This document shows positions 6,711-53,577 of a stretch of DNA of 64,000 bases, piece by piece. The DNA comes from Nitrospirota bacterium (GTDB lineage: Bacteria > JACPQY01), in contig JACPQY010000024.1 in assembly GCA_016190245.1 (NCBI GenBank), forward strand, positions 121,620 through 185,619, given 5' to 3'. The notes below the pieces were generated by a model, which did not search any database, was not told where the DNA came from, and saw only the letters and a list, made by a program, of their open reading frames with translations. Each line of letters opens with the position of its first letter. Position 1 is the first letter of the stretch. The position numbers and the translations under genes are program-made.

Positions 6711-9700
6711 ATGCAATGGACTGCACGACTAGGGAGAGATGGGGCGTGGCTGGTTTTCTGTCTTTTTTCCGTCCACGTCGCCAACACAGGATGTGACCGT
6801 TTCGACGGGGCGGCGCCCAAAGAAGCCCCGCCAAAGTCTTCCGCCGACCTGATCCGACTCGACGTAACGATTCCGCTCTCCCCCGAAGCCGCCGCGGCCC
6901 TCCTTGCCGTGCAGGAGCAGGACGGTCTGGTGGCCGACGTGGATCTAAACGGGCGCCGAGCGGCCCAGGAGCTGCCGGGCCGCGTTGAGGCCGGCGTTCG
7001 CGCGGGCGTTCGCGCCGGGATCCGCATGGCAGGCGCACCCACGGTGAAGCAAGGCGTCCGTGTCGGCGTACGGGCCGGCGTCCGTCTCTCCTCCGGGCGC
7101 GGAGGCGGTTCCACCTCGCCCACCCCCGGCTCGAATGTTGTCCTCGACTCCCGTTCGGTCTCAACTGGCCGCGGTGCGGGCGGTCTGGGTCTCGGCCTGT
7201 ACACGCCGCTCGAGACTCAGGATTCGTCCTCGCTCGTCGAAAGCCCACCTCTCCCCGCGCTCGAGGCCGACCCACCCGCGGGCGCCGACGAAATCGTTCA
7301 TCACTTCAGCACGTCGTTCGAGCTGCCGACGAACCTCGCGTCCGACGGGGGCAATCGCTTCGACTTTCGCATCCGCACCGAACGCCACGCCGACCTGATC
7401 CTCGCTCAGGTGAGCACGCTGATCCGCGCCACGTGGCGCGATCTCCCTTCGGCCTCGGACGGCTCGGGACAGGGCAACACGTCGGATCGTGCCCGCCGGG
7501 CGCTCGAAATCTCCCCGGAGCCGCTCGAGTCCTACGAAGTGGACCTCCCCGACCAAGACGGCGATGGCGTGGCCTCGCTCGTGGAGGTCGCCACCCTCGT
7601 GACGGTCCCTCCCGAAAACGGGGGCCGGCCGCTGACCTTGGACGAGGCCGCCCAGGCGGCCCGAACGGCCGGCGGACCTCAAGTCACCCCCTCGCAGGTC
7701 AAGACCGCGTTCAGCCTTCTCGCCAAGGATCTCGACGTTCGGACTCGAGAGGACCTGAACCGGAGCGGCACGCCCGCCCCTGCAACGTGGCACCCTGTGC
7801 TCACCCAAGCCGATCTCACAGCACCCGAGGCCCGAATCTCCGTTGACGCGACAACGCTCGTCGAAGGGAGCACGGTATCCGCCACACTGGACTGCAACGA
7901 AGCCGCCTGCGCCTATCGCTGCGCGCTCGACGGCGCCGAACCTGAGCCCTGCCCCGCCACGCTGGCCCTCACGCTCGCCCCCGGCTCTCACATCCTCGAA
8001 GTCCGGGCGGTAGACCCCTTCGGCAACCGCAGCGCCGACCCAGCCACCGCCGAGATCGTCGTGGCTCCGGCGCCCTCATGCTCGAGCGCCGCCTGCGAGG
8101 AGTCTCCGACCTCCTCCGACGAGCCCCCCCCCCCGGAGCCGACCGTCGAGTTCGCGGAACACCCGCCCCTGCTCTCGGCCGACCCGAGCGCGCGTTTCCA
8201 TCTGACTTCGGCTGCGCCCTCCGCGCGATTCGCCTGCCGGCTCGATACGGGCCGACCCTTCGCGTGCCCCTCAACGTTCGAGATCAAGAACCTCGACGAC
8301 GGGCCCCACACGTTGGCGGCCGGCGCATCCGCCGACGCGGCTCCCAATCTCTTCTCGTGGATTGTGGATCAGACCCCGCCGGATGCGGGTCGGGCCGGTC
8401 ACGCCACCACCGATGGGACCGCCTACCATGCCTCCGCAACCGTCTTCCCCGCCACCTGGACGGGTTTCTCCGACGGCCAGAGCGGCGTCGTGGGATTCGA
8501 GGTGAACCTCGGCACGGGGAACGATTGCCCCGGCGATACCCATCCCGGCGTCAAGGTGGGCGACACGGATCATGCCCTCCTCACCAATCTCTCCCTCGCG
8601 GATGGGCGGAAGTACTATTTCTGCGTCCGGGCCGTGGACCGGGCCGGGAACGCGAGCGCCTGGGCCGTGTCCTCCGGCACCGTCGTGGATCTTCGCCCAC
8701 CCGTCTCCGTGCCCCGAGCGCCCGCCAACGGTGCAAAGGTGGCGGCGGTCGGTCCGATCGGAGCAATCGCCGACGACACGTTGAGCGGCGTGCAGGAGGT
8801 CCGGGTCTCCATACAACGCGAGTCCGACCAGAAGTACTGGTCCGGCGGGTGGGTGGATCAGGAGTCCTGGCTGCCCGTGCAAAAAGAGGAAACGCTGTCC
8901 GATGCGGAACTCCCGGCCTGGATGATGGGCGAGTCCTACACCGTGCGGACCTTCGCCATCGACCGCGCCGGAAACGTGGAACCACTCAGCGCGCAGACGA
9001 AGTTCGTGTATGACACCGCGCCGCCCCTCTTCGAAGGGCTCGCGGGAGCTTTCGCCGTGGGCGACTCGGTCATCCTGAGCTGGACGCCCGCCCTCGACAA
9101 CGTGAGCGCCCCTTCGGACATGGTCTACCAGATCTGCCAATCCTCCACGGCCGCCGGGTGCGCGGCATTCACCTCCACCCAGGTGAGCGCGGCCGGGGCA
9201 TCCAGTCAGGTCGTCGCAAACGTGCCCGCGGGACCGGGCTACTTCGTGGTCCGCGCCCAGGACGAGGCGGGCAACTCCGATCCCAACCTGATCGTGCGTT
9301 CGGACGTCGCCGGGTTCGACGTGTGGGCCGGGCGCGCGCCGATGCCGACGCCCCGCACGACCGCTGGGGGGGCCGTTTCGGGGCTTGAACTGTACATCGT
9401 CGGCGGATATTCCGGCGGAGCGGTGCTCAACACCGTCGAAAGCTATAACCCGCTCCTCGACCGGTGGGTCGCCCGCCAGCCGATGCCGACCCCGCGCGAG
9501 GGGCCCGCCGTGGCCAAAGTGGACGAGCGGGTCTACGTGATCGGCGGGAGCAACGGCTCGGCCTTGAACGTGGTGGAGGTCTACGACCCGCAGGCGGGCA
9601 CGTGGACCACGCGAGCCGCCATGCCGACGCCCCGATCCCACGCCGCGGCCTGTGCGCTCGGCGGCAAGATCATTGTAGCCGGAGGTTGGAACGGAAGCGC

Positions 9701-10157
9701 CCTCGCTCAAGTGGAAGTGTACGACCCTGCCTCGGACACGTGGGCTGCCCTTCCCCCCCTGCCCAGCCCGCGCTGGCAGGCGGCCGCAGTGGTCGCGAAC
9801 GGCAGGGTCTACGTGCTGGGCGGGCGCTACGCCAGTGCGCTGAGCCTCGTGGATGAATACAACCCGTCCGGCAACTCCTGGGCGAGCCGCCCGCCCCTGC
9901 CGACCGCGCGATACGGCCTCGCAGCCGTTTCCCTCGGGAGTCGGATCATCGCGATGGGCGGCCGGGCCGAGCAGGCCAACGGCGTGGTCGAAGAGATCAA
10001 TCTCGACGCGGCGACGCCCTGGGCCACGCGCAGCTCCATGCCGACGCCGCGCGCGTCATTCGTGGCCGTGCCCTACGCGGGCAGGATCCTCGCGGTAGGC
10101 GGCGCCGGCGCCGCACAAGTCCTGGGCGTGGTCGAGGCCTACTCGCCGCTGCCGTAG
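6711..10157 (+). CDS. Giant secreted modular protein with signal peptide, GVRAG peptide repeats, DxDGDG calcium-binding motif, Ig-like CxxC-x-LDG domain(s), fibronectin/Ig-like repeats and a C-terminal six-blade Kelch beta-propeller
   Basis: 1148 aa with a good RBS (aaggggg) before ATG 6711 and an N-terminal hydrophobic segment. Contains GVRAGVRAGIR...GVRVGVRAGVR, DLPDQDGDGVASLVEV, and SATLDCNEAACAYRCALDGAEPEPCPATL...GSHILEVRAVDPFGN. The C-terminus has six Kelch repeats (LYIVGGYSGG...VYVIGGSNGS...IIVAGGWNGS...VYVLGGRY...IIAMGGRA...ILAVGGAGA). Confidence 0.85.
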   Translation: MQWTARLGRDGAWLVFCLFSVHVANTGCDRFDGAAPKEAPPKSSADLIRLDVTIPLSPEAAAALLAVQEQDGLVADVDLNGRRAAQELPGRVEAGVRAGVRAGIRMAGAPTVKQGVRVGVRAGVRLSSGRGGGSTSPTPGSNVVLDSRSVSTGRGAGGLGLGLYTPLETQDSSSLVESPPLPALEADPPAGADEIVHHFSTSFELPTNLASDGGNRFDFRIRTERHADLILAQVSTLIRATWRDLPSASDGSGQGNTSDRARRALEISPEPLESYEVDLPDQDGDGVASLVEVATLVTVPPENGGRPLTLDEAAQAARTAGGPQVTPSQVKTAFSLLAKDLDVRTREDLNRSGTPAPATWHPVLTQADLTAPEARISVDATTLVEGSTVSATLDCNEAACAYRCALDGAEPEPCPATLALTLAPGSHILEVRAVDPFGNRSADPATAEIVVAPAPSCSSAACEESPTSSDEPPPPEPTVEFAEHPPLLSADPSARFHLTSAAPSARFACRLDTGRPFACPSTFEIKNLDDGPHTLAAGASADAAPNLFSWIVDQTPPDAGRAGHATTDGTAYHASATVFPATWTGFSDGQSGVVGFEVNLGTGNDCPGDTHPGVKVGDTDHALLTNLSLADGRKYYFCVRAVDRAGNASAWAVSSGTVVDLRPPVSVPRAPANGAKVAAVGPIGAIADDTLSGVQEVRVSIQRESDQKYWSGGWVDQESWLPVQKEETLSDAELPAWMMGESYTVRTFAIDRAGNVEPLSAQTKFVYDTAPPLFEGLAGAFAVGDSVILSWTPALDNVSAPSDMVYQICQSSTAAGCAAFTSTQVSAAGASSQVVANVPAGPGYFVVRAQDEAGNSDPNLIVRSDVAGFDVWAGRAPMPTPRTTAGGAVSGLELYIVGGYSGGAVLNTVESYNPLLDRWVARQPMPTPREGPAVAKVDERVYVIGGSNGSALNVVEVYDPQAGTWTTRAAMPTPRSHAAACALGGKIIVAGGWNGSALAQVEVYDPASDTWAALPPLPSPRWQAAAVVANGRVYVLGGRYASALSLVDEYNPSGNSWASRPPLPTARYGLAAVSLGSRIIAMGGRAEQANGVVEEINLDAATPWATRSSMPTPRASFVAVPYAGRILAVGGAGAAQVLGVVEAYSPLP

Positions 10158-10172
10158 AGCCCGGCCGGGGCA

Positions 10173-10355
10173 TCAAGACGCGTGCCGCCAGGTCCACCGC
10201 ATAGGGCCATCGGACACGAAATCGTATCGGGAGCTTGAGCTGGAGCCTCCCTGGAGTCGCTCGGCCAGCCAAAGCTTGATGATGGTTTGGCGGGTCACGC
10301 CCAAGCGCCTCGCCTCCCGGTCAAGGGACTGCACCCTCCAGGTGGGGAAGTCCAC
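10173..10355 (-). pseudogene. BrnA/CopG-family antitoxin C-terminal fragment (no plausible N-terminus)
   Basis: The minus-strand 60-aa ORF encodes ...SLDREARRLGVTRQTIIKLWLAERL, matching the C-terminal RHH region of BrnA-like antitoxins (compare the intact brnA at 21861..22166). There is no partner toxin and no N-terminal region. Confidence 0.35.
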
Positions 10356-11108
10356 TTTGACCCACTATTCCTGCCCGGGCCCGCGGGCCTTGGAACGGTC
10401 CAGAGCCTTAGCCATGTCCTCCCCTCGCTCAAAACGCCTGTCAAATTCCTTCGCTTTCATGGATCTCCATTCCCTCCTTTCGAGAGCGCCTCACGCGAAT
10501 CAGGCGCACTTTTTCGCCGCGATACGAACGACGCCCCCTCCGAATTCGCCCAACGCGTGGACCGCGAGGCCCAGCGCCGCGGCTTCGACCAAGCCCCACG
10601 TCAGGCCGTCCTGGGCGACGGCGCGCCGTGGATCTGGAACGTGGCCGACGAACAATTCCCCGGCGCCGTCCAGATCGTCGATCTCTACCACGCCAAGGGG
10701 CACCTCTCGGACGTGGCCAAGGCCAACTACGGACCGGGCAGCCACGTGGGCGCCCAGTGGGCCGAGCAGCGACACGACGAACTGGACAAGGGTGAGATGG
10801 ACGCCTTGCTGCAAGCCCTGCGCGTCCATGCCGACGCCACCGACGCGGCACGCCAGTGCCTGGACTACGTCACTCGCAACCGGAGCCGCATGCGCTACCC
10901 GGAGTTCCGCGCCCATGGCCTGTGCGTCTCCACCGGCGTCGTCGAAGCGGGCTGCAAGGTGGCCAGCGGAACGCGCCTCAAGCGCGCCGGGATGCACTGG
11001 ACCGTCGCCGGGGCCGACGCCATCATCGCCCTGCGCTGCTGCAAGTTGAGCGGCCGGTTCGAAGACTTCTGGGGACGACGATCAGCGGCGGCGGTCGCCC
11101 GCCGCTGA
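10287..11108 (+). mobile_element. ISKra4-family transposase remnant (C-terminal ~195 aa only; N-terminal two-thirds missing)
   Basis: From about 10520 the frame reads ...AVLGDGAPWIWNVADEQFPGAVQIVDLYHAKGHL...RMRYPEFRAHGLCVSTGVVEAGCKVASGTRLKRAGMHWTVAGADAIIALRCCKLSGRFEDFW, which is the conserved C-terminus of ISKra4-like DDE transposases. The upstream part of the ORF (10287-10520) is P/G-rich non-homologous sequence. No intact N-terminal region or inverted repeats were seen. Confidence 0.6.
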
Positions 11109-11142
11109 TGGGAGTATCTCACAAGTTTATCGTGCACCCCCA

Positions 11143-11285
11143 CTGACTCCTGACTGACCAGCCAAGGACGATGCCGTTCCAAGGATGACTGACGGTACCT
11201 GGAGCGCCACGAAGGCTGCGGAGGGTGCGGTACCCGCCGCAACAAACCGAGCCGGATGCGAGGTAGAGGTACGGAAGGGTACTTT
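11143..11285. repeat. Direct repeat A (left copy) bracketing the MTase-helicase cassette
   Basis: The 28-mer ctgactcctgactgaccagccaaggacg (11143-11170) is identical to 21463-21490. The tail ggtgcggtacccgccgcaacaaaccgagccggatgcgaggtagaggtacggaagggtacttt matches 21560-21620 with a few substitutions. The ~50-bp core between them diverges but keeps a ccaagga/tccttgg hairpin. Confidence 0.8.
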
Positions 11286-11323
11286 TGACACCTTCCCACT
11301 GATCTTCTACTCTCCGGCTTGCA

Positions 11324-14300
11324 ATGGCCGAACGAGTGGAGCGACAGCAAGCCATATCGGAAATTCTAAGGAATCTTCACCAAACCAAAGCTAATGGGCT
11401 GAAGCAACTCTTCTGGACGGAGCTCAACTACAGCCAGGAAAACAGGCCGTTGAGCCCGCGTCCGTGGCCCGCGAGCGCCACGGAATCCCTGGATGATGAT
11501 CCGGTTCTGTTCGCCACCGGCGGCGAGGAGGGCGCGTTCCACGTCGTCTACGCGCGACTGTCCGGCGATACCCTCTCCCGCGGAGCGGAACGCCCCATCG
11601 TCAACCAACTCCTGCGCGACCATCCTTACGCGCTGTTCGTCTTCTCGAACAAGAGCCAATCGGCCTGGCATCTCCTGAATGTGAAGTATGACGACGCCGT
11701 GGAAAAGCGGCGCCTAATCCGCCGCATCTCGATTCGGGCCGGCGAGGGATTGCGGACCGCGGCAGAGCGCATGGCCTTGCTGGACCTTCAAGCCGTAAGC
11801 CCGAACCTCGTCGGGCTTTCGCCGCTCGCGATTCAACAGCGCCACGACGATGCGTTCGATGTGGAAAAGGTCACCAAGGACTTCTATCGCGAAATCGCCG
11901 ACTGGTACTTCTGGGCCATCGGGTGCGATCAGTTGTCCTACCCCCCGGACGTCCACCGGGACGACGAGAAAGCCCTTTTCCTGATCCGACTCCTCACCCG
12001 CCTGATCTTTTGCTGGTTCCTGCGGGAAAAGCGCAATCCGCGGACCGGGGAGGGCCTGATTCCTGACCCTATTTTCGATCCGCGTGGGATTGCCGGGTAC
12101 CTGAAAAACCCTTCTCCGGATTCCTGCTCCTACTATACGGCCATCCTCCAGAACCTCTTCTTCGCCACGCTGAATACTGAGATGGACCCACCCGCCGAGG
12201 AGGACAAGACTGGGCGACCACCGGAGCGCCGATTCGCGAAGGGGGCCGGCGATCACATGATTCACACCTTTTGGCGGCATAAGGACGATCTGCGCGACCC
12301 CGACGCGCTGACCCGCCTTCTACGCGGAATTCCGTTCCTGAACGGGGGTCTGTTCGAGTGTCTCGATGAACGGGAAGAAAAGGGGAGGTCGCCCTATACG
12401 AAGGAATTTCGCGTGGACGGTTTCTCGACCGATCCCGAGAAGCAGCCGAGACTGCCCAATTTCCTCTTCTATGGGCCGGGTCGGACGGCGGATCTCTCCG
12501 GCCCGTACGGCGATTCGACCCGGCGTCGCCAGACCGTCACCCCCATTCTGGAGATCCTGCGCCGGTACAACTTCACTCTCACCGAAAACACACCCTTCGA
12601 CCAGGAAGTGGCCCTCGATCCGGAACTGCTCGGGCACGTGTTCGAAAACCTCTTGGCCGCATACAACCCGGAAACGGAAACAGTAGCCCGCAATGCCACC
12701 GGCTCCTTCTACACCCCCCGAGTGGTGGTGGATTGGATGGTCGATCAGGCGATCACGGCGCGATTTGCCGGCGCCCTGAAGAATGGATCTCCCCTCGTGG
12801 GTGACCGGACGGAGAGAATTCGAAAACTCCTTTCATGGGAACACACGGATCACGATTTCAGCCCGCAGGAAACCGAAGTGCTGATCGACGCGATCGACAA
12901 CCTCAAGGCTCTCGATCCCGCCTGCGGCTCCGGCGCTTTCCCCATGGGCCTGCTCCAGAAGCTGGTCCATGTCCTGAAAAAGCTGGACCCCGAGAACAAG
13001 GCGTGGCGGAAGCGTCAGGAGGACAAGGCGAGGCAAATCGAGAGCAGCCCGACCCGCGAGGAAGCGCTCAAGGCCGTCGAACGCGCGTTCGCCCGCGACA
13101 ACGACGACTATGGCCGCAAGCTCTATCTCATCGAGAACTGCCTGTACGGCGTGGATATCCAACCCATCGCCGTCCAGATCGCCAAACTTCGGTTTTTCAT
13201 CTCGCTCGTGGTGGATCAGGCCATCGATCCGAAGGAGGAGAACTACGGCATCCTCCCCCTGCCGAACCTGGAAACGAAGATTGTGGCGGCTAACACTCTC
13301 GTCGGGCTGAAGCGGGGTCAACTCACCCTCCGCACGGGAAACGTCGAACGTCTCGAACAGGAGCTCAAACAGATTCGGCACGATTACTTCACCGCGAGAA
13401 TCTACAAGGAGAAGAAAAAGCTGCGGGCGCGGGACCGCGTCCTGTGCGGAGAGCTGGCCGAGGAGCTGGCGAAGTCCGGCGAGTTTACGACGCATGACGC
13501 CAAGCGGCTGGCCGAGTGGAATCCGTACAAGGCCAACGAGCCGGCCACCTTTTTCGATCCAACCTGGATGTTCGGCCTGACGTCCAACAAAACCGATGGA
13601 GTGTTCGATCTCGTCATCGGAAATCCTCCCTACGTTCGGCAGGAGGAACTCAAGAGCCGGATGGCCGTAGGGAGCGATGGGAAGGAGCGTCCGCTCAAGG
13701 ACGTCCTGAAAGAGCAGTACGAATGTTACGTGGGCACGGCCGATCTCTACGTCTACTTCTTCGAACGGTCCCTGCAACTGCTACGAATGGGCGGGATTCT
13801 GAGCTTCATCACGAGCAACAAGTATTTCAGGGCGGCGTATGGGGAACCCCTCCGGAGGTATCTCGCGTATGCCACGCGGCCGGCGGCGGCCCTCGATTTC
13901 GGCGAGGCTCCCGTTTTCACCTCGATCGTTGAACCAGCCATCCTCGTGGCGGAGAAGACACGACACATCAGCAAGGCGGAAGCGAAGCTGCCGGACTCTC
14001 TGGATGCGTATCCGCCGCCGGGGGACTGGAAATCCCGCGTTCTCACGTGGGTGCCAGCCAAGGATGGTGCGGCACCCCGCCAAGAAGGTCGGCCAGGAAG
14101 GTCGACGAAAGTAAGCGGGGCGCCGGGACCGGACTTCAGGGAGTTTCCGGAGATCTTCGAGCAGAAGGCCCAGGCCCTGCCACAGCGGGAGTTGAAACCG
14201 GACGGGTGGCGATTTGAAAGTCCGCTCAAACTCCGCCTCCTCGAACGATTGAAGAAGACGGGCACTCCGCTGGGCAACTACGTGAAGGGGCGGTTCTATT

Positions 14301-14725
14301 ACGGCATCAAGACCGGACTGAACGAGGCGTTTGTCGTGGACCGCGCCACGCGCGACCGCCTGATTGACGAGCACCCCTCATCGAAGGAAATCCTCAAACC
14401 CTTCCTCCGCGGCCGGGATGTGAAACGCTGGCGGTGCGAATTCGATGATCGGTATTTGATCAAGATTGAATCGTCGAAAAATGTGCATCACCCTTGGTCC
14501 GGGAAGCCGAAAAAGGAGGCCGAGAAAGTATTCGAAAAGACCTATCCGGCCGTTCACGGTTTTTTCGACGCAAAGAGGCAACCCCTCATCAAGCGATATG
14601 ACCAAGGGGAATACTTCTGGGAACTAAGATCGTGCGCCTACTGGCGGGAATTCGAGCAGCCGAAGATTTTGTACCCGGACATCTACGATCATCAGAGCTT
14701 TGCCTGGGACAGTGAAGGCTTCTAG
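11324..14725 (+). CDS. Eco57I/MmeI-type (type IIG/IIL, gamma-class) N6-adenine DNA methyltransferase with ~330-aa N-terminal domain and start of a TaqI_C-like target-recognition domain; terminated by an in-frame TAG inside that domain
   Basis: 1133 aa. Motif I is LDPACGSGAFPMGLLQKL, motif IV is VIGNPPYVRQ, and FITSNKYFRAAYGEPLRRYL plus ENCLYGVDIQPIAVQIAKLRFFISLV are typical of the Eco57I/PglX family. The C-terminal part (...AFVVDRATRDRLIDEH...KILYPDIYDHQSFAWDSEGF) is the first half of a TaqI_C-type specificity domain. The stop is TAG at 14723-14725. Confidence 0.85.
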   Translation: MAERVERQQAISEILRNLHQTKANGLKQLFWTELNYSQENRPLSPRPWPASATESLDDDPVLFATGGEEGAFHVVYARLSGDTLSRGAERPIVNQLLRDHPYALFVFSNKSQSAWHLLNVKYDDAVEKRRLIRRISIRAGEGLRTAAERMALLDLQAVSPNLVGLSPLAIQQRHDDAFDVEKVTKDFYREIADWYFWAIGCDQLSYPPDVHRDDEKALFLIRLLTRLIFCWFLREKRNPRTGEGLIPDPIFDPRGIAGYLKNPSPDSCSYYTAILQNLFFATLNTEMDPPAEEDKTGRPPERRFAKGAGDHMIHTFWRHKDDLRDPDALTRLLRGIPFLNGGLFECLDEREEKGRSPYTKEFRVDGFSTDPEKQPRLPNFLFYGPGRTADLSGPYGDSTRRRQTVTPILEILRRYNFTLTENTPFDQEVALDPELLGHVFENLLAAYNPETETVARNATGSFYTPRVVVDWMVDQAITARFAGALKNGSPLVGDRTERIRKLLSWEHTDHDFSPQETEVLIDAIDNLKALDPACGSGAFPMGLLQKLVHVLKKLDPENKAWRKRQEDKARQIESSPTREEALKAVERAFARDNDDYGRKLYLIENCLYGVDIQPIAVQIAKLRFFISLVVDQAIDPKEENYGILPLPNLETKIVAANTLVGLKRGQLTLRTGNVERLEQELKQIRHDYFTARIYKEKKKLRARDRVLCGELAEELAKSGEFTTHDAKRLAEWNPYKANEPATFFDPTWMFGLTSNKTDGVFDLVIGNPPYVRQEELKSRMAVGSDGKERPLKDVLKEQYECYVGTADLYVYFFERSLQLLRMGGILSFITSNKYFRAAYGEPLRRYLAYATRPAAALDFGEAPVFTSIVEPAILVAEKTRHISKAEAKLPDSLDAYPPPGDWKSRVLTWVPAKDGAAPRQEGRPGRSTKVSGAPGPDFREFPEIFEQKAQALPQRELKPDGWRFESPLKLRLLERLKKTGTPLGNYVKGRFYYGIKTGLNEAFVVDRATRDRLIDEHPSSKEILKPFLRGRDVKRWRCEFDDRYLIKIESSKNVHHPWSGKPKKEAEKVFEKTYPAVHGFFDAKRQPLIKRYDQGEYFWELRSCAYWREFEQPKILYPDIYDHQSFAWDSEGF

Positions 14726-14728
14726 TCC

Positions 14729-15259
14729 GTGAATACGACCTATTTTATTCCTACCACTGAGAAATGGCTCGCCGGGCTTCTGAATTCTCCGTGCGTCGAG
14801 TGGTTCTATTCCCAAATCGCCAACCGAGTGCGTGGAGGCTACATGCGCGCCTTCTCCGACTACATGAAGCAGGTCCCTATTCCAACCCTCTCTCCGAACC
14901 AACAACAATCCTGCGAGCGGCTGACCGAAGCGTTGATCTGGCTTCATTCCCCCCGAGTATCGAAGAAGACGACCGAAGCGCCGGTCGGCATGATGCAGGC
15001 GTATTTCGAGCAATGGCTCAACGGCCTCGTGTACGAACTCTTCTTCCCCGCCGAGCTCCACGCCCGGAAACTGACCCTCTTCGATGAAACCGCCAAGCTG
15101 AACCTCCCGGACCTCGCAGAAATTCCGGAGGCGCAGAAACTCCCCCGCCTCCGGGAATCGTTCGAGTCCGCCTACGACACCAACTCCCCCCTCCGCGCCA
15201 TGCTCTTCGACCTCCATTCCATTGAAGAAGTCCGCGTGATCGAGGAACGGACCGAATGA
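14729..15259 (+). CDS. Continuation of the methyltransferase specificity (TaqI_C-like) domain plus C-terminal tail, in the same frame as 11324..14725 and separated only by TAG + one codon
   Basis: Same reading frame (11324 and 14729 are both congruent to 2 mod 3). It begins SVNTTYFIPTTEKWLAGLLNSPCVEWFYSQIANRVRGGYMRAFSDYMKQVPIP, the second half of the TaqI_C consensus (..LLalLNSkl.ewyf...lrggy.rf...yl..lPIP), which is normally contiguous with the preceding ...FAWDSEGF segment. Confidence 0.6.
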   Translation: MNTTYFIPTTEKWLAGLLNSPCVEWFYSQIANRVRGGYMRAFSDYMKQVPIPTLSPNQQQSCERLTEALIWLHSPRVSKKTTEAPVGMMQAYFEQWLNGLVYELFFPAELHARKLTLFDETAKLNLPDLAEIPEAQKLPRLRESFESAYDTNSPLRAMLFDLHSIEEVRVIEERTE

Positions 15260-15327
15260 GCCGTGGGACGAATATCCGTAACGGGTATTTTATAAGTATT
15301 TGAATATACACGATATTATTTGAGATC

Positions 15328-15356
15328 TTGACAGCATTAATATATATGTTAATAAT
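15328..15356 (+). promoter_or_regulatory. AT-rich promoter (TTGACA-17 nt-AATAAT) with a partial dyad (attaata...taataat), likely the operator of the TA(C) operon
   Basis: TTGACA at 15328-15333 and AATAAT at 15351-15356. A 150-bp AT-rich gap (15260-15409) sits between GC-rich genes. The toxin ATG is at 15410. Confidence 0.45.
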
Positions 15357-15409
15357 GCCGATTCTAGTGGTGGAAGTACAGCAGGAATCGGTGCGCCAAG
15401 GAGCGGGGC

Positions 15410-15742
15410 ATGCCACTTCGGCAGGTCGCCTTCGGAAAACAGGGCACCGTAGCTGAATACGTACGAAGTGGTGGCCGATGTCCGGCGCGCGTTTTCTTGG
15501 ACTGGTGCCAAAAGCCGATGCGGGACAAGTTTGACGATGCGTTCGTTGCCCTCGTGAGAATGGGAGCAAGTTACGTCAACCAAGAACGATTCTGGCTCTT
15601 ACATGGGCATGGAAAACCCCTGTGGGAGTTCAAAGAACACCACCACAGACTCTACTGTGCCAGAGAGCAGGTTGGACCGGCTGTGAGGGTGATTCTTCTA
15701 CATGGGTGGAAAAAACAGAAGGAAGGTGGGACCAAAGAATAG
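15410..15742 (+). CDS. higB: RelE/HigB-superfamily toxin, phage Gp49-like (DUF891) family
   Basis: 110 aa. ...LWEFKEHHHRLYCAREQVGPAVRVILLHGWKKQ matches the Gp49-like/HigB toxin family signature. It is followed by an XRE-HTH gene in toxin-first (HigBA) order. Confidence 0.7.
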   Translation: MPLRQVAFGKQGTVAEYVRSGGRCPARVFLDWCQKPMRDKFDDAFVALVRMGASYVNQERFWLLHGHGKPLWEFKEHHHRLYCAREQVGPAVRVILLHGWKKQKEGGTKE

Positions 15743-15819
15743 GACCAAGAAATTCGGAAAGCTTTGAACTTATACATAGAGTTTCAGCAAGAAGAAAAAA
15801 TGATCGGAAAGGAGGAAGT

Positions 15820-16257
15820 ATGGAGAAGACTAAGCCATTGAGTCGTTCCCCCGCTCTAACCCGCCGGGATCTGGAAAGGGCTGAGGGTGTGGCCATCGCC
15901 ATGGCGCAGGCCACGATCCAAAATGCAATGGATGGCGCGAATATCACGAAGGCCGAGCTTGCCAGGAGACTTCGCAAGAAGCCTCCCTATATTACGCGCA
16001 TGATGCAAAGCGATCACAATTTGACAATCAGAACGTTTTCCGGCGCACTCGCGGTATGCGGATTTGAGGTGGACTTCGAGTTGGCTCCGCTCGGTCAGAG
16101 CTGGTCGCTCGCACCGGTCCAACGTACCTTCTACCGATCACGACCTCAAGCAAGCGTGACGCCTCCCATTTTGGGGGGCGTTCCTACGTGGTCGGCAAGA
16201 CCCGACTTCGCGGGAACGCTCCCCTTGGTTGGTTCGCTGGATTCGAGAGGAGATTAG
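15820..16257 (+). CDS. higA: XRE-family HTH antitoxin (HigA-like) with ~50-aa C-terminal extension (candidate chaperone-addiction region)
   Basis: ATG at 15820 is preceded by ggagga. HTH is ITKAELARRLRKKPPYITRMMQSDHNLTIRTFSGALAVCGFEV. The C-terminal tail QSWSLAPVQRTFYRSRPQASVTPPILGGVPTWSARPDFAGTLPLVGSLDSRGD is absent from plain HigA proteins. The 3-prime end overlaps the next gene by 29 nt. Confidence 0.7.
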   Translation: MEKTKPLSRSPALTRRDLERAEGVAIAMAQATIQNAMDGANITKAELARRLRKKPPYITRMMQSDHNLTIRTFSGALAVCGFEVDFELAPLGQSWSLAPVQRTFYRSRPQASVTPPILGGVPTWSARPDFAGTLPLVGSLDSRGD

Positions 16258-16759
16258 CGTGGCCGAGGATATCGATCTAGGAACGGTTGCCAAGATTGCG
16301 CGACGAGCGCGTCTGCTGGACATACAACTCGCTTTACTACAGGCAACCACTCAATCACGGCCGGGGGGCGAACTTGTTCCAGCACATAAAGTGTCTTCCG
16401 TCCTGCTTGGTCGAAAGGACTCCGGCGCCGTCATTGCCTCCTCATTCGCATTCACGGTTACCGTTGGTCAGGCTCAAGTCGCTGAAGTCAGCATGACATT
16501 CCACTTGGTGTATGAATTCGAAGGCCAAGATCCTCTATCGGACGACGACATCGGCCATTTCGCCAGAGGGAACGGAACGTACCACGCATGGCCCTACATG
16601 AGGGAAATGTTGAGCAATCTCCTCCCGCGTATGGGCTTCCCCCCCTTTACCCTTCCCGTTCTTGTATTCGGACAGCCTCAGCGGCAAGCACCTCAATCTG
16701 AAACGAAACAGGATGGACCAAGGGACGATCAAACAGAGGTGAAGGAACCAACCGTATAA
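16229..16759 (+). CDS. SecB-like chaperone (TAC-system chaperone, SecB_TA-like)
   Basis: 176 aa. The C-terminal segment GNGTYHAWPYMREMLSNLLPRMGFPPFTLPVLVF parallels the SecB motif (..CPNILFPYARE.I..LV.RGGFP.L.L.PVNF). Gene order toxin-antitoxin-SecB matches M. tuberculosis Rv1955-1957. Confidence 0.6.
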   Translation: MVRWIREEISVAEDIDLGTVAKIARRARLLDIQLALLQATTQSRPGGELVPAHKVSSVLLGRKDSGAVIASSFAFTVTVGQAQVAEVSMTFHLVYEFEGQDPLSDDDIGHFARGNGTYHAWPYMREMLSNLLPRMGFPPFTLPVLVFGQPQRQAPQSETKQDGPRDDQTEVKEPTV

Positions 16760-16870
16760 GCAGATTCCCGCCGAGGCAAGGGTGGTCCGCCTTTGAGTCA
16801 AGAGAAGAATCGAACGGGCGATCCCGTTCAGTAACTTGCATTTTAACCATCAATCGGCTAAATATCAGCC

Positions 16871-18103
16871 GTGATTCAGCGGCATATCTCGGGGAACTTG
16901 GACGAGTCTCTGGCGGACACCCCGGTGGCGCTCCTGACGGGCGCCCGGCAGACGGGCAAAACGACTCTCGCCATGGAGTGGGCCGGCCGAAGAAAGGCCC
17001 GGTACTTCACACTCGATGAAGCCGCAACCCTGGCGGGAGCCGCCTCCGACCCGCAAGGATTCATCGAAAATCTCGAACAGCCGGCGGTCATCGACGAGGT
17101 TCAAAAGGTTCCGGCCCTGCTTCCCGCCATCAAACTCCGAGTGGATCGCGATCGTCGGCCAGGAATGTTCCTTCTCACGGGTTCGGCCAACGTCCTCACG
17201 CTCCCGAAGGTGTCGGAATCGCTGGCAGGAAGGATGGAGATCCACAGGCTCTGGCCCCTCTCACAAGGCGAAATTCATGGCCGACACGAAGACTTCATTG
17301 CCACCGCGTTCTCCAAAAGGCCCCCGCGGGCCGTTTCGAACGGACTCATCCCCCTCGCACGGCCCATTACGGTGGGAGGCTACCCTGAAGTCCAAAAACG
17401 CAAGGGGAACCGCTCGGCAGCATGGTTCGGCTCATACATCAGCGCCCTTCTTCAACGCGACGTGCGGGACCTGGCGCACGTGGAACGCCTCACGTCCATC
17501 CCCAATCTTTTGACGCTCCTCGCCACCCGCTCGGCGTGCCTCCTCAACACTTCCGACCTCACGCGCGACGCGCGCATCGCCAACTCAACGCTCAAACGAT
17601 ACCTCAGCCTCCTGGAGATGATTTTCATCGCCTATCGCCTGCCCGCATGGTCGGTCAACCTCGGCAAACGTCTGGTCAAAGCGCCCAAGCTGATGCTGTG
17701 CGATACGGGCCTGGCCTGCCACTTGCTGGGCGCGGATGAGAACCGCTTGAACGGGGACGCGACCCTGAAGGGCAGGCTGACGGAAAACTTCATTTCGAAT
17801 GAATTGCACAAGCAGGCCACCTGGTCCGCTGTGTCTGTCCGCATTTTCCACTTCCGTTCGGCGTCCGCGCAGGAAATCGATTTTATCCTGGAGGATACAC
17901 GGGGGCGAGTTGTCGCCATCGAGGTGAAAGCCTCGCACACCGTCCGGCCCGAGGATTTCCATCCCATGAGGGCCTTGGCCGAATCGTTGAAGTCCCGTTT
18001 CATCCGGGGCATTCTTCTGCATGACGGCCGGCAGGTTATTCCCCATGGGGCAAATCTCTGGTCCGCGCCGTTTTCGTGTTTGTGGTCCGCCGGAGAATCC
18101 TGA
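16871..18103 (+). CDS. AAA+ ATPase of the DUF4143/AAA_14 (COG1373-like) family
   Basis: 410 aa. Walker A is LLTGARQTGKTTL and Walker B-like is MFLLTGSANVL. The C-terminal DUF4143-like region ...IDFILEDTRGRVVAIEVKAS has the typical architecture of this widespread ATPase family. Confidence 0.8.
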   Translation: MIQRHISGNLDESLADTPVALLTGARQTGKTTLAMEWAGRRKARYFTLDEAATLAGAASDPQGFIENLEQPAVIDEVQKVPALLPAIKLRVDRDRRPGMFLLTGSANVLTLPKVSESLAGRMEIHRLWPLSQGEIHGRHEDFIATAFSKRPPRAVSNGLIPLARPITVGGYPEVQKRKGNRSAAWFGSYISALLQRDVRDLAHVERLTSIPNLLTLLATRSACLLNTSDLTRDARIANSTLKRYLSLLEMIFIAYRLPAWSVNLGKRLVKAPKLMLCDTGLACHLLGADENRLNGDATLKGRLTENFISNELHKQATWSAVSVRIFHFRSASAQEIDFILEDTRGRVVAIEVKASHTVRPEDFHPMRALAESLKSRFIRGILLHDGRQVIPHGANLWSAPFSCLWSAGES

Positions 18104-18106
18104 ACC

Positions 18107-30997: not shown

Positions 30998-31054
30998 GTC
31001 GTTCCCGCGAAAGCGGGGACCCAGTCTGGATTCCTGCTTCCGCAGGAATGACGA
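30998..31054. repeat. REP-like intergenic element, copy 2
   Basis: gtcgttcccgcgaaagcggggacccagtctggattcctgcttccgcaggaatgacga. It is preceded by a further hairpin gacgcgggcactccccgcgtc directly after the transporter stop codon. Confidence 0.55.
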
Positions 31055-40854: not shown

Positions 40855-41123
40855 ACGATCTCTCGTACGGAAGAGGCCTCGAGACACAGGTCTACGGAAG
40901 CCGCGGCGACCTTGCCGCTCGGACGCACCTTCGGCAACGCCACGGCGGTAGTGCTCCGAATCCTCTACACAGATCGGGCGAGTTGGCCCGAAGGGCCCTC
41001 CCGGCGCCAGGGGTTGGGGCGTGCCGGCAGACTGATCCTGGTCTCCATTGCCCCGGGGTGGCCCGAACAACATCCCCGAGCATCGAAATGGCAGGACGCG
41101 CATTCTTTCGCTATCATCCATCC

Positions 41124-52131: not shown

Positions 52132-52566
52132 GTGCGCCCAGCGTCAACGATGAAGACAACCATGCCCACTGACGGCTTCGCTGAGGCCGTCCGCTATTAC
52201 AGAAACGCCCGTGAGTTGCTCGGTCGGTGCAAGGTGGAGGACAACCGCTACGAATACATGAAACCGGTCAGGGAGTCCTTCGGCACGGCTTGGCTCGCCT
52301 TCGATCACGCCGCCAAGGTCGCACTGATCCAGAGTGGAGTTGATCCGAAGAAGATGCCCAGAACGTGGGATGCGCTCCTGGCGGAGGTCAGGAAGCGCCT
52401 CGACGCGCACAACGGCAAGCTCGTCCGGCTCCTGAGCGACGCCTACCAAGTCGTCCACATCGCAGGCTACTACCACGGGGAATTCCGCTTCGCCCCCTTG
52501 GCCAAGGACGGTCTGCAGGTGGTCCGTCAAGGCATCGGAAAACTCTCCGGCCGACGGATCGGTTGA
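52132..52566 (+). CDS. Hypothetical helical protein (144 aa)
   Basis: Coding-like ORF (YYRNARELLGRCKVEDNRYEYMKPVRESFGTAWLAFDHAAKVALI...). No confident family assignment. Confidence 0.45.
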   Translation: MRPASTMKTTMPTDGFAEAVRYYRNARELLGRCKVEDNRYEYMKPVRESFGTAWLAFDHAAKVALIQSGVDPKKMPRTWDALLAEVRKRLDAHNGKLVRLLSDAYQVVHIAGYYHGEFRFAPLAKDGLQVVRQGIGKLSGRRIG

Positions 52567-52587
52567 AAGTCGCAGGTCTGTCAGCGC

Positions 52588-53404: not shown

Positions 53405-53577
53405 CCGGAGAAGATCAGCCCCGGTGGCATCCTTGGGCCGTACCCGTACGGCAAGACCGTTCTCCCCCTCCCGGGCCAGTCTCTTGGGAAGCCTTCAGGC
53501 CGCGGAGGTCACGCATCCTGAAGGGTCCGGCTACCGCTCAATACTCAAGACAGACCCGACTCGCTGCTTCACCCGCC

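What the first reader, a model, noticed from the sequence alone, without database searches (positions are those of the whole stretch)
6711..10157. Paralogous family of giant modular surface proteins that share N-terminal modules but carry different C-terminal beta-propellers (Kelch versus FG-GAP)
6711..10157 (1148 aa) and 25463..29491 (1342 aa) share a common N-terminal architecture. It consists of a signal/lipobox, a short AAAL segment, tandem GVR(A/G)G peptide repeats, a thrombospondin-type-3-like DxDGDGVsdLiEV calcium-binding motif, and Ig-like domains built around a conserved C-x(2-3)-C-x-LDG...C...P...G-H-x-L-x-V-[RK]-A-x-D-x-x-G-N signature. They end in unrelated propellers: six Kelch blades in the first, six FG-GAP (integrin-alpha-like) blades in the second, which also has Fn3 and Cys-rich CGNGxCExGE..CPSDC repeats. 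A frameshifted third member lies at 52588..53404. Module shuffling of adhesin/ligand-binding propellers on a common stalk suggests a diversifying cell-surface recognition family. The Kelch member is the integration target of the defence island.
Basis: partly seen in the sequence, partly recalled or inferred. Interest (0 to 1): 0.6.

Follow-up and report, generated by a model that had tools for sequence, protein, structure and literature searches.

The report
Lipid-anchored stalk proteins with swappable propellers
Two large genes in this window belong to a rare family, seen in only a few uncultured groundwater bacteria, in which the same lipid-anchored base and stalk carries any of five unrelated beta-propeller heads, which makes it a clear natural case of domain swapping in what are probably cell-surface binding proteins.

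Summary
ORFs 6711..10157 (Kelch) and 25463..29491 (FG-GAP) share a collinear N-terminal region: lipoprotein-type signal, (I/V)PLxxEAAAL motif, G(V/I)R repeats, a beta domain, an LPDxDGDGVxxLxEV loop, a DLTxP hinge and a four-cysteine Ig-like domain (BLASTP E 6e-20). They end in different propellers.

A profile of the N-terminal part alone, searched against 1.84 billion proteins, found only 17 hits. Sixteen are family members and one is a dockerin false positive. They come from this MAG (NCBI label "Nitrospirae bacterium", HYY13), a second MAG (HYT87) and a few stray contigs. Across them the same base carries Kelch, FG-GAP, NHL, RCC1 or BNR/Ycf48-type heads. Stalk and neck similarity does not follow head type, so heads were exchanged.

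The base has no Pfam, NCBIfam or PDB match. The Ig domain is the known OmpL47 type.

- The FG-GAP head has seven blades, not six.
- The calcium-type loop gets no TSP_3 hit and fits an EF-hand/dockerin pattern.
- The "third member" is a 5'- and 3'-truncated fragment with one frameshift, on the minus strand at about 52873..53518.
- A diverged copy of the Kelch 3' end beyond the defence island supports insertion there, but no integrase remains.

Surface display and ligand binding are inferred, not shown. This is a new variant of a known kind.

The parts
6711..10157 (+). Kelch-headed family member (1148 aa; identical to MBI2889869.1)
   Evidence: ORF. Pfam Kelch_1 5.4e-55. Self-hit P0011. An independent Logan assembly reproduces the gene's 3' end and the junction downstream of it at 100% over the stretch compared, 9979..10915.
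6711..6794 (+). Kelch member: lipoprotein-type signal peptide ending in NTG|C
   Evidence: Sequence MQWTARLGRDGAWLVFCLFSVHVANTGC. The Cys aligns with [ASTG][GS]C in 12 other members. No signal-peptide predictor was available.
6864..6908 (+). Kelch member: conserved IPLSPEAAAAL motif
   Evidence: Family consensus V.IPLTPEQAAAL.GV. The equivalent segment of the FG-GAP protein is modelled as a strand plus helix with pLDDT about 90.
6981..7091 (+). Kelch member: six G(V/I)R units, an Arg/Gly-rich repeat loop
   Evidence: Regex count. Low pLDDT in the model apart from two short strands.
7287..7592 (+). Kelch member: base beta domain followed by the LPDQDGDGVASLVEV calcium-type loop
   Evidence: Alignment A5: D, D, D, G, L and E are invariant or nearly so. 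No Pfam hit.
7806..8066 (+). Kelch member: DLTAP hinge and first four-cysteine Ig-like domain (OmpL47 type)
   Evidence: NCBIfam NF047446 41.8 bits, cut-off 40. Signature CALDG...C...GSHILEVRAVDPFGN.
8136..9032 (+). Kelch member: further Ig/Fn3-like stalk domains
   Evidence: Weak Big_13, fn3 and Big_3_2 matches, all below cut-off. Internal repeat of the Cys-Ig signature seen in BLASTP.
9033..9314 (+). Kelch member: 'neck', a disulfide-containing Fn3 subtype (W..A.D...Y.IC.S....C...YFVVRA.DEAGN) that directly abuts the head
   Evidence: Aligned with the necks of Kelch, RCC1, BNR and FG-GAP members at 31-60% identity. More than 100 Fn3-type homologues elsewhere.
9315..10154 (+). Kelch member: six-bladed Kelch propeller that ends the protein, with no C-terminal anchor
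   Evidence: Six blades of 39-47 aa, mean 36% blade-to-blade identity. Pfam Kelch families.
25463..29491 (+). FG-GAP-headed family member (ORF 1342 aa; likely start TTG 25541, 1316 aa = MBI2889878.1)
   Evidence: ORF. Pfam FG-GAP 2e-29 and Big_13 4.9e-9. Self-hit P0012.
25541..25639 (+). FG-GAP member: lipoprotein-type signal peptide ending in SGG|C
   Evidence: LGEITKAAYQGRAGHHGPWLVALVLLSVWSGGC.
25676..25939 (+). FG-GAP member: VPLTLEQAAAL motif and eleven GVR units
   Evidence: Model: strand 11-19 and helix 21-39 with pLDDT about 90, repeats mostly disordered.
26039..26266 (+). FG-GAP member: base beta sandwich and LPDSDGDGVSDLIEV loop
   Evidence: AlphaFold2 strands 138-188 with pLDDT about 80-85, followed by the loop and helix 206-216.
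26327..26536 (+). FG-GAP member: two long helices, of which this protein has an extended version
   Evidence: Helices 232-266 and 275-301 with pLDDT about 90. The insertion relative to the other members is visible in A5 columns 420-470.
26537..26827 (+). FG-GAP member: DLTPP hinge and first OmpL47-type Ig-like domain
   Evidence: NF047446 53.8 bits, cut-off 40. Foldseek matches this part to the region of Bacteroides sensors that holds the Y_Y_Y Ig-like domain (E 6e-5) and to PKD domains.
26855..26980 (+). FG-GAP member: two CGNGxCExGE....CPSDC cysteine repeats
   Evidence: Regex. One copy sits at the same position in P0014, P0015, P0017 and P0019. No Pfam or NCBIfam model matched.
27020..28147 (+). 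FG-GAP member: two more Cys-Ig domains, then two Fn3-like domains
   Evidence: Big_13 two stretches; fn3 weak. Signatures at aa 567 and 657.
28148..29488 (+). FG-GAP member: FG-GAP propeller with seven repeats by eye, five of them with a D-x-[ND]-x-[DN]-G Ca loop; it ends the protein
   Evidence: Pfam FG-GAP five stretches. Regex.
52873..53518 (-). Truncated fragment of a third member with one frameshift, running from the base beta domain to mid Ig domain; closest to the Kelch-headed paralogue P0020
   Evidence: tblastn: P0020 aa 158-323 at 54% and aa 326-365 at 60% in another frame, E 5e-52. Motifs SDVDGDGISTLLEAV, DLTP and FQCSLDGAPEAPC.
21751..21887 (+). Diverged duplicate of the Kelch gene's last ~95 nt plus downstream sequence, beyond the defence island
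   Evidence: tblastn: Kelch aa 1103-1147 at 51-57% identity. Direct repeat D1, 73-77% identity.
10158..21750 (.). Inserted low-GC block holding a BrnA fragment, an ISKra4 transposase fragment, a split type IIG methyltransferase, a PDC-S01 ATPase and an HKD+SNF2 helicase
   Evidence: GC 55-60% against about 65% elsewhere. Pfam, PADLOC and NCBIfam hits. Inner direct repeats 11140-11285 / 21460-21620.
40983..42869 (+). Separate RCC1-propeller lipoprotein on a different stalk. It is not a family member, but its head resembles the family's RCC1 heads.
   Evidence: Pfam RCC1 1.5e-37. 41-43% identity to the heads of P0019, P0021 and P0027. The N-terminal sequence lacks the family motifs.

Best explanation
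The two genes encode N-terminally lipid-anchored, stalked display proteins of one lineage-restricted family.

Proposed layout, from membrane outward:
- A type II signal peptide leaves a lipidated cysteine.
- A short variable tether leads into a conserved base: the (I/V)PLTPEQAAAL strand and helix, an Arg/Gly-rich GVR loop, a beta sandwich, and a DxDxDGxxxxxE calcium-type loop.
- A helical segment and a DLTPP hinge connect the base to a rigid stalk of disulfide-bonded OmpL47-type Ig-like domains and Fn3-like domains.
- A conserved Fn3 'neck' holds a beta-propeller at the far end. The propeller ends the protein, so the only anchor is N-terminal.

The propeller is the exchangeable working part. 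Within the family the same base and neck carry Kelch, FG-GAP, RCC1, NHL or BNR/Ycf48-type propellers, which were swapped in by recombination at the neck-head junction. The most likely role is binding of different external ligands (glycans, proteins, or surfaces of other cells) at a distance from the cell envelope.

Shown here: the homology of the base, the domain order, the five head types, and the mismatch between stalk similarity and head type.
Inferred: lipidation, surface exposure, calcium binding and ligand binding.
For: Homology of the shared region:
- BLASTP E 6e-20.
- A profile of the N-terminal part without the Ig domain finds only 17 proteins among 1.84e9. Sixteen of them have the same collinear motifs.

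Heads, by Pfam:
- Kelch: P0011, P0020, P0026.
- FG-GAP: P0012, P0015, P0024.
- NHL: P0014.
- PSII_BNR: P0017.
- RCC1: P0019, P0021, P0022, P0027.

Evidence that heads were swapped:
- Kelch-member stalks are only 29-36% identical to each other, whereas RCC1 member P0021 is 48% identical to FG-GAP member P0015.
- The neck of Kelch member P0020 is 60% identical to that of RCC1 member P0027, but 41-44% to the other Kelch members.
- The Kelch heads of P0020 and P0026 are 55% identical, while their stalks are 36% identical.

Anchoring:
- All N-complete members have a hydrophobic stretch followed by [ASTG][GS]C.
- All end at the last blade, with no sorting domain.

Structure:
- The AlphaFold2 model of the base plus first Ig domain has pTM 0.76 and mean pLDDT 77. 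The base elements and the Ig domain are confident.
- The Ig part matches Ig/PKD-like domains of surface and periplasmic binding proteins, including an archaeal S-layer propeller+PKD protein and Bacteroides surface glycan-binding lipoproteins.

Stalk domain: it is NF047446, the OmpL47 type. OmpL47 is surface-exposed in Leptospira and was tested for binding of host matrix components (PMC2698987, PMC2935396; titles and abstracts only).

Genomic context: no conserved neighbouring genes around four members, which fits stand-alone proteins.
Against: - No experiment or predictor tested lipidation, localisation, calcium binding or ligand binding. The organisms are uncultured MAGs.
- In a diderm, a lipoprotein may face the periplasm, and no export route to the surface is identified.
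- Some propeller classes found here are often enzymes. The NHL head of P0014 also hits SGL/lactonase models, and the Kelch head weakly hits NanM-type mutarotases.
- The swap inference rests on pairwise identities at 30-60%, not on reconciled phylogenies.
- The base modelled alone gives only pLDDT 59.
Confidence: 0.6

Rival explanations
1. They are periplasmic lipoproteins, anchored in the inner membrane or the inner leaflet of the outer membrane. On this reading the propellers act as enzymes or periplasmic binding or assembly factors, and the Ig/Fn3 domains serve only as spacers across the periplasm.
For: - The source is labelled Nitrospirae (diderm) and no surface-export signal or partner is identified.
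- The Kelch protein has Asp at position +2 after the Cys. In E. coli that residue means inner-membrane retention (own knowledge).
- NHL/SGL, BNR/Ycf48 and NanM-like Kelch propellers include periplasmic enzymes and assembly factors.
- The best structural match of the Ig domain is in the periplasmic sensor domain of Bacteroides hybrid two-component systems.
Against: - A stalk of five or more Ig/Fn3 domains plus a base would exceed the usual width of a periplasm (inference).
- Five unrelated propellers on one conserved scaffold fits display of binding modules better than five unrelated enzymes.
- The +2 residue is not conserved in the family (S, I, Q, G, V, T, F).
- The OmpL47-type domain is known from a surface-exposed protein (PMC2698987).
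Confidence: 0.2
2. They are structural envelope or S-layer-like proteins. The Arg/Gly-rich GVR region and the base would bind a cell-wall polymer, and the propellers would build a lattice rather than bind external ligands.
For: - There is fold similarity to an archaeal S-layer protein made of a beta-propeller plus PKD domains (1l0q).
- The Arg-rich repeats next to the anchor could contact anionic envelope polymers (inference).
Against: - There are many divergent paralogues per genome with different heads (at least 4 in HYY13 and at least 8 in HYT87). S-layers are normally built from one or two abundant proteins.
- One copy is a decayed fragment and another has a mobile island at its 3' end, which suggests the genes are dispensable.
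Confidence: 0.08
3. The shared N-terminal similarity is a by-product of low-complexity sequence and of ubiquitous Ig-like repeats, not a homologous family-specific module.
For: - The GVR region is low-complexity.
- The first word-indexed search returned only Ig-domain matches.
- One profile hit (P0025) is an unrelated dockerin-repeat protein that matched through the DxDGDG loop.
Against: - With the Ig domain removed, the profile still finds specific relatives at E 7e-25 to 1e-9 that align over most of its length.
- The motif order and spacing are conserved in 15 sequences, with invariant residues outside the repeats.
- AlphaFold2 folds the non-repeat parts confidently.
Confidence: 0.02

Closest known systems
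Leptospira OmpL47 (multi-beta-barrel-domain surface protein; NCBIfam NF047441 / domain NF047446)
   Same: The four-cysteine Ig-like stalk domain is of the OmpL47 type (53.8 and 41.8 bits, cut-off 40). OmpL47 is a surface-exposed envelope protein that was studied as a candidate adhesin (PMC2698987, PMC2935396).
   Different: The whole-protein OmpL47 model is far below cut-off (18-25 bits against 250). OmpL47 has no propeller head and lacks the PLTPEQAAAL / GVR / DxDGDG base.
Calcium-stabilised giant repeat adhesins exported by type I secretion (SiiE, LapA, MpIBP; NCBIfam Ca_tandemer NF033510)
   Same: They follow the same building logic: an anchor at the N-terminus, a long extender of Ig-like repeats, and ligand-binding modules at the far C-terminal end. 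There are weak Ca_tandemer and SiiE matches to the stalk.
   Different: The proteins here have a lipobox signal instead of a C-terminal RTX/T1SS signal, and only 3-6 stalk domains rather than tens. The Ca_tandemer score is below cut-off (26.8 against 50). Their heads are whole beta-propellers.
Integrin alpha subunits (seven-bladed FG-GAP propeller on Ig-like 'leg' domains)
   Same: The FG-GAP member combines a seven-repeat FG-GAP propeller bearing Ca loops with a leg of Ig-like domains and a single membrane anchor.
   Different: The polarity is opposite: here the head is C-terminal and the anchor is an N-terminal lipid, whereas integrins have an N-terminal head and a C-terminal transmembrane helix. 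No beta-subunit partner is evident. The similarity is limited to the repeat family.
Bacteroides SusE/F-like surface glycan-binding lipoproteins (e.g. MLGUL SGBP-B, PDB 6e57)
   Same: They are lipoproteins with an Ig-like spacer domain next to the membrane and binding domains further out. Foldseek gives a hit at E about 1e-2.
   Different: Their binding domains are beta-sandwich carbohydrate-binding modules, not propellers. They are encoded in polysaccharide utilisation loci with SusC/D partners, and no such neighbours occur here.
Archaeal surface-layer protein with YVTN beta-propeller and PKD domains (PDB 1l0q)
   Same: It combines a beta-propeller with Ig/PKD-like domains in an envelope protein.
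   Different: The domain order, propeller family and anchoring all differ, and there is no sequence relationship to the base.

Membership tests
Kelch-repeat beta-propeller (Pfam PF01344 and clan) | Tandem ~45-residue Kelch motifs scoring above the Pfam gathering threshold | tested here: met
   Kelch_1 182.9 bits against a cut-off of 20.1, E 5.4e-55. Six blades of 39-47 aa.
FG-GAP / integrin-alpha-type propeller (Pfam PF01839) | Tandem FG-GAP repeats above the gathering threshold, typically seven blades with D-x-D/N-x-D/N-G Ca loops | tested here: met
   FG-GAP 101.4 bits against a cut-off of 22.1, five stretches. Five canonical loops by regex, plus two degenerate repeats by eye, give seven.
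Thrombospondin type-3 repeat (Pfam TSP_3) | A match to the TSP_3 profile (aspartate-rich calcium-binding repeat, usually tandem) | tested here: not met
   No TSP_3 hit at E <= 0.1 in either protein, nor at E <= 1 in any of the 14 N-modules. The motif occurs only once per protein.
EF-hand/dockerin-type DxDxDG calcium loop | A 12-residue loop D-x-[DN]-x-[DN]-G-x-x-x-x-x-[DE] with an acidic residue at position 12 | tested here: inconclusive
   The pattern is met by the sequence (DSDGDGVSDLIE and DQDGDGVASLVE) and is nearly invariant in the family. The only false-positive profile hit is a dockerin-repeat protein. No EF-hand or dockerin Pfam hit was found, and metal binding was not tested.
OmpL47-type beta-barrel/Ig-like domain (NCBIfam NF047446) | Domain score at or above the curated cut-off of 40 bits | tested here: met
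   53.8 bits for the FG-GAP protein, 41.8 for the Kelch protein and 51.6 for P0014. Foldseek confirms an Ig-like fold.
Leptospira OmpL47 protein family (NCBIfam NF047441, equivalog) | Whole-protein score of at least 250 bits | tested here: not met
   18.1 and 25.3 bits.
Bacterial Ig-like domain Big_13 (Pfam PF19077) | Score of at least 27 bits | tested here: inconclusive
   The FG-GAP protein scores 37 bits (met) and the Kelch protein 23.1 bits (below cut-off). Most homologues pass.
Fibronectin type III (Pfam PF00041) | Score of at least 25 bits | tested here: inconclusive
   18.3 and 19.6 bits in the two window proteins. Several homologues and neck-domain relatives pass.
Bacterial lipoproteins (signal peptidase II substrates) | N-terminal signal peptide with a lipobox [LVI][ASTVI][GAS]C recognised by Lgt/LspA | not testable with these tools
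   A hydrophobic stretch followed by NTGC or SGGC; the Cys aligns across 13 members. The -3 residue is atypical (N, S). No SignalP/LipoP was available and there is no experiment.
Type I-secreted Ca-tandemer adhesins (NCBIfam NF033510) | Repeat score of at least 50 bits and a C-terminal RTX/T1SS signal | tested here: not met
   26.8 bits. The proteins end at the last propeller blade.

The most novel reading that the evidence does not exclude
The conserved N-terminal base is a previously undescribed anchoring and display platform specific to this deep-branching lineage. It consists of a lipidated Cys, the IPLTPEQAAAL strand and helix, the Arg/Gly GVR loop, a beta sandwich and a DxDxDG loop. It has no Pfam, NCBIfam or PDB relative. 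It occurs in only 16 protein clusters among 1.84 billion representatives, all from a handful of groundwater samples. On this reading the genomes maintain a combinatorial repertoire of receptors by actively exchanging whole propeller cassettes (Kelch, FG-GAP, RCC1, NHL, BNR) at a fixed neck junction. The donor pool would include propeller lipoproteins outside the family, such as the RCC1 protein at 40983..42869.
Probability: 0.25. Interest if true: 0.65.

Novelty: new variant of a known kind. Interest (0 to 1): 0.45.

Why it matters
Large modular surface proteins with Ig-like stalks and a binding head are common. Here, though, one well-defined scaffold carries five unrelated beta-propeller superfamilies within two or three closely sampled genomes. 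That makes the unit and the junction of domain swapping unusually easy to read.

It gives a natural test bed for how propeller heads are exchanged and re-amplified. One member has eight blades that are 71% identical to each other.

It also defines an N-terminal module that current domain libraries miss. These 1100-2000-residue proteins are therefore annotated only as "hypothetical" or by their head.

If the proteins are surface receptors, the head repertoire would indicate what these uncultured groundwater bacteria attach to or sense.

Tried and rejected
- Word-indexed homology searches with the N-terminal 460 aa and with the 15-sequence stalk alignment returned only generic Ig-domain proteins or two fragments. 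They did not even return the query's own protein, so they were not usable for a census. The exhaustive HMMER search supplied the family.
- A scan of GTDB species representatives with [LM]PD[QVL]DGDGV found no relative. Two scans of JGI metagenome contigs, using that pattern and [EQD][VI][VFQ]LPD[AS]DG, also found none. These scans see only members that carry those exact patterns.
- Placing the organism through its tRNA-guanine transglycosylase failed. The best identity was 57%, spread over Bacillota, Desulfobacterota and Nitrospirota, so only the NCBI label "Nitrospirae bacterium" can be quoted.
- I looked for conserved neighbours around P0014, P0018, P0024 and the two window genes and found none. 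The contigs of P0015 and P0020 could not be retrieved.
- TSP type-3 assignment: rejected, because there is no profile hit.
- A toxin or contact-dependent-inhibition reading: rejected, because the proteins end at the propeller with no C-terminal effector domain.
- A functional link between the family and the defence island: rejected as unsupported. The island is a low-GC insertion with IS debris, and other family members have unrelated neighbours.

Full report
**Observation.** The window is about 65% GC. ORF 6711..10157 (1148 aa) and ORF 25463..29491 (1342 aa) are present as described.
- Pfam assigns the C-terminus of the first to Kelch repeats (Kelch_1 5.4e-55) and of the second to FG-GAP repeats (2e-29). 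Only weak Ig/Fn3 matches lie in between.
- BLASTP between the two gives E 6e-20 across Kelch aa 276-550 and FG-GAP aa 250-613. A second segment at E 1e-5 covers the signal peptide, the AAAL motif and the GVR repeats.
- The shared elements come in the same order in both: hydrophobic signal ending in Cys; (I/V)PL(S/T)xE(A/Q)AAAL; 6 versus 11 G[VI]R units; LPDxDGDGVxxLxEV; DLTxP; and a four-cysteine Ig-like domain ending in G-H-x-L-x-V-[RK]-A-x-D-x-F-G-N.
- There are six Kelch blades. I count seven FG-GAP repeats rather than six, five of them with a canonical Ca loop.
- The two CGNGxCExGE....CPSDC repeats are at aa 465-506.
- The FG-GAP gene most likely starts at the TTG at 25541, which gives a 33-residue lipoprotein-type signal. 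That is also the start of the database protein.

**Is the shared part a real module?** I built a profile from the region between the lipobox Cys and the DLTPP hinge, leaving out the Ig domain, and ran it with HMMER against 1.84 billion representative proteins.
- Only 17 proteins scored E <= 1e-3. Two are the window's own proteins and one is a dockerin-repeat false positive that matched through the DxDGDG loop.
- The other 14 carry the same motifs in the same order and spacing.
- A 15-sequence alignment shows invariant residues outside the repeats: D198, D202, G203, L207, four cysteines, and the A-x-D-x-x-G-N signature.
- AlphaFold2 on this alignment gives pTM 0.76 and mean pLDDT 77. The confident elements are an N-terminal strand plus helix (the PLTLEQAAAL motif), two short strands within the GVR region, a beta sandwich, the acidic loop followed by a helix, two long helices, and the Ig domain. 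Most of the GVR repeats are disordered.

**What the parts are.**
- The Ig domain is a known type. NCBIfam NF047446 (OmpL47-type domain) scores 53.8 and 41.8 bits against a cut-off of 40.
- Foldseek aligns this Ig part of the model to Bacteroides hybrid two-component sensors, which carry a Y_Y_Y Ig-like domain (E 6e-5). It also aligns it to PKD domains, Bacteroides surface glycan-binding lipoproteins and an archaeal S-layer propeller+PKD protein.
- The base has no match in Pfam (0 of 14 members at E <= 1), in NCBIfam, or in PDB by sequence profile or fold. The base-only model is weak, at pLDDT 59.
- The acidic loop gets no TSP_3 hit. Its pattern, D-x-D-G-D-G-x-x-x-L-x-E, is that of a 12-residue EF-hand/dockerin loop.
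- The domain just before the head (the "neck") is a disulfide-containing Fn3 subtype. It has more than 100 relatives elsewhere, many of them ~150-residue secreted proteins.

**The family.** Exact look-ups show where the members come from.
- The window comes from a MAG labelled "Nitrospirae bacterium" (locus tag HYY13; Kelch = MBI2889869, FG-GAP = MBI2889878; contig 230,501 bp).
- HYY13 holds two further members on another contig: P0015 (FG-GAP) and P0020 (Kelch).
- A second MAG, HYT87 (GCA_016180645.1), holds at least eight members.
- A few more come from one Logan run (SRR22387949) and one JGI contig.
- Pattern scans of GTDB representatives and of JGI metagenome contigs found no further relatives.
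- The organism's TGT protein has no close relative; the best identity is 57%. The family is therefore rare and lineage-restricted as far as these searches can see.

**Heads.** Pfam on the members shows five propeller superfamilies on the same base:

| Head | Members |
|---|---|
| Kelch | P0011, P0020, P0026 |
| FG-GAP | P0012, P0015, P0024 |
| NHL | P0014 |
| PSII_BNR/Ycf48-type | P0017 |
| RCC1 | P0019, P0021, P0022, P0027 |

One partial protein (P0013) continues into MopE-type cysteine repeats. All complete members end at the last blade, with no C-terminal sorting domain.

**Evidence that heads were exchanged.** Similarity of stalk and neck does not follow head type.
- Kelch-member stalks are 29-36% identical to each other. 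RCC1 member P0021 is 48% identical to FG-GAP member P0015 and 46% to BNR member P0017.
- The neck of Kelch member P0020 is 60% identical to that of RCC1 member P0027, but 41-44% to the other Kelch necks.
- The Kelch heads of P0020 and P0026 are 55% identical although their stalks are 36% identical.
- The junction is sharp: a few residues after the conserved ...YFVVRA.DEAGN...N..E.SA segment, the propeller starts.
- The window also holds an RCC1 lipoprotein on an unrelated stalk (40983..42869). Its head is 41-43% identical to the family's RCC1 heads, so propellers appear to move between scaffolds.
- One Kelch head (P0026) has eight blades that are 71% identical to each other. This fits the recurrent amplification of propellers from single blades described in PMC9218822 (abstract).

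**Mechanism proposed.** The architecture reads as an N-terminal lipid anchor, a membrane-proximal base, a stalk of Ig/Fn3 domains, a neck and a distal propeller.
- The many cysteines (four per Ig domain, the CGNG repeats, two in the neck) point to an oxidising compartment.
- The OmpL47-type domain comes from a protein shown to be surface-exposed in Leptospira (PMC2698987).
- The lack of conserved neighbours suggests self-contained proteins.
- I therefore favour stalked surface-display proteins whose propeller binds an external ligand, with different paralogues covering different ligands (confidence about 0.6).
- The main rival is a periplasmic location with enzymatic or assembly functions for the propellers (about 0.2). 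An S-layer-like structural role is less likely (about 0.08).
- Lipidation, location, calcium binding and ligand binding are all inferred.

**Third member.** On the minus strand, 53491..53000 matches P0020 aa 158-323 at 54% identity, and 52992..52873 matches aa 326-365 at 60% in another frame (E 5e-52).
- A weaker match to P0018 extends the fragment to 53518.
- The fragment begins just downstream of a gene that reads like a TolC-type outer-membrane channel by eye; no profile search was run on it.
- It ends against an HEPN-like fragment.
- It is a gene remnant without signal, repeats, stalk or head.

**Defence island.** Between the two genes the GC content falls to 55-60%.
- The block holds a BrnA antitoxin fragment and an ISKra4 transposase fragment.
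- It also holds a split type IIG restriction-methyltransferase, a PDC-S01 ATPase and an HKD+SNF2 helicase.
- The last ~95 nt of the Kelch gene plus downstream sequence recur beyond the block at 21751..21887. The identity is 73-77% at DNA level and 51-57% at protein level.
- A second, inner pair of direct repeats (11140-11285 / 21460-21620, 92-97% identity) brackets the defence genes.
- This pattern fits nested insertions at the 3' end of the Kelch gene in which the incoming DNA supplied a replacement gene end. No integrase remains, so the mechanism is unresolved.
- An independent assembly reproduces the gene-island junction exactly, so it is not a binning artefact.
- Nothing links the island functionally to the family.

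**Verdict.**
- The finding is a new variant of a known kind: modular stalked envelope proteins. Its distinctive features are an undescribed base module and an unusually broad, clean set of propeller swaps.

Noticed in passing
window 11140-11285 and 21460-21620: A second, inner pair of direct repeats (31 nt at 97% and 63 nt at 92%, separated by a divergent spacer) brackets the restriction/helicase genes exactly. It is nested inside the outer Kelch-3'-end duplication (10063-10175 / 21751-21863). This suggests two successive insertions.
   Followed up: partly
window 11324-15259: The type IIG restriction-methyltransferase is split into 1133-aa and 176-aa ORFs at 14725/14729. The TaqI_C specificity domain is divided between them, so the gene is probably inactivated or has slipped frame.
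   Followed up: partly
window 10173-11108: Directly after the Kelch stop codon lie a C-terminal fragment of a BrnA antitoxin (minus strand, NF047399 2.6e-15) and the C-terminal half of an ISKra4-family transposase (NF033572 1.3e-54, below cut-off). This is debris at the left edge of the island.
   Followed up: partly
window 21861-22447 (minus strand): Two small ORFs read by eye like a BrnT (DUF497)-type toxin and a ribbon-helix-helix antitoxin. They converge on the displaced Kelch 3' remnant. No PADLOC or NCBIfam model matched them.
   Followed up: partly
window 22531-22602 and 30998-31052: There are two intergenic copies of a palindromic REP-like element (GATTCC.GCTT.CGC.GGAATGAC in inverted pairs). 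That makes four matches where none is expected by chance.
   Followed up: partly
window 40983-42869: A separate lipoprotein-like gene has Big/PKD-like N-terminal domains and an RCC1 propeller. The propeller is 41-43% identical to the RCC1 heads of stalk-family members in the other MAG, so it is a possible donor or recipient of head cassettes.
   Followed up: partly
homologues P0013, P0017, P0019, P0021, P0027 (HYT87 MAG): Short peptides such as GAPFTGASSDAGIKPA and LPRLHESTASGAPARPFREGL recur at different positions in several family members. They look like in-frame insertions of a small repeat element read in both orientations, reminiscent of Rickettsia palindromic elements (own knowledge).
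   Followed up: no
window 52581-52870 (minus strand): A frameshifted HEPN-like fragment (motif RNELAH) abuts the 3' truncation point of the third-member remnant. An unannotated 144-aa ORF lies at 52132..52566 on the other strand.
   Followed up: no
proteins P0030-P0149: The 'neck' Fn3 subtype has more than 100 relatives that are ~150-residue secreted proteins from soil Actinobacteria/Chloroflexi-type metagenomes. One of them carries a prepilin N-methylation domain. Their function is unknown.
   Followed up: partly
homologue P0026 (HYT87 MAG): Its Kelch head has eight blades with a mean 71% pairwise identity (maximum 85%). This points to very recent amplification of a single blade. The six blades of the window's Kelch head average 36%.
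   Followed up: partly
HYY13 MAG, this window and a 38.7-kb contig: In both loci of this genome a Kelch-headed and an FG-GAP-headed member lie 9-10 protein accessions apart (MBI2889869/878 and MBI2890719/729). This hints at a duplicated two-gene arrangement. The second contig could not be retrieved.
   Followed up: no
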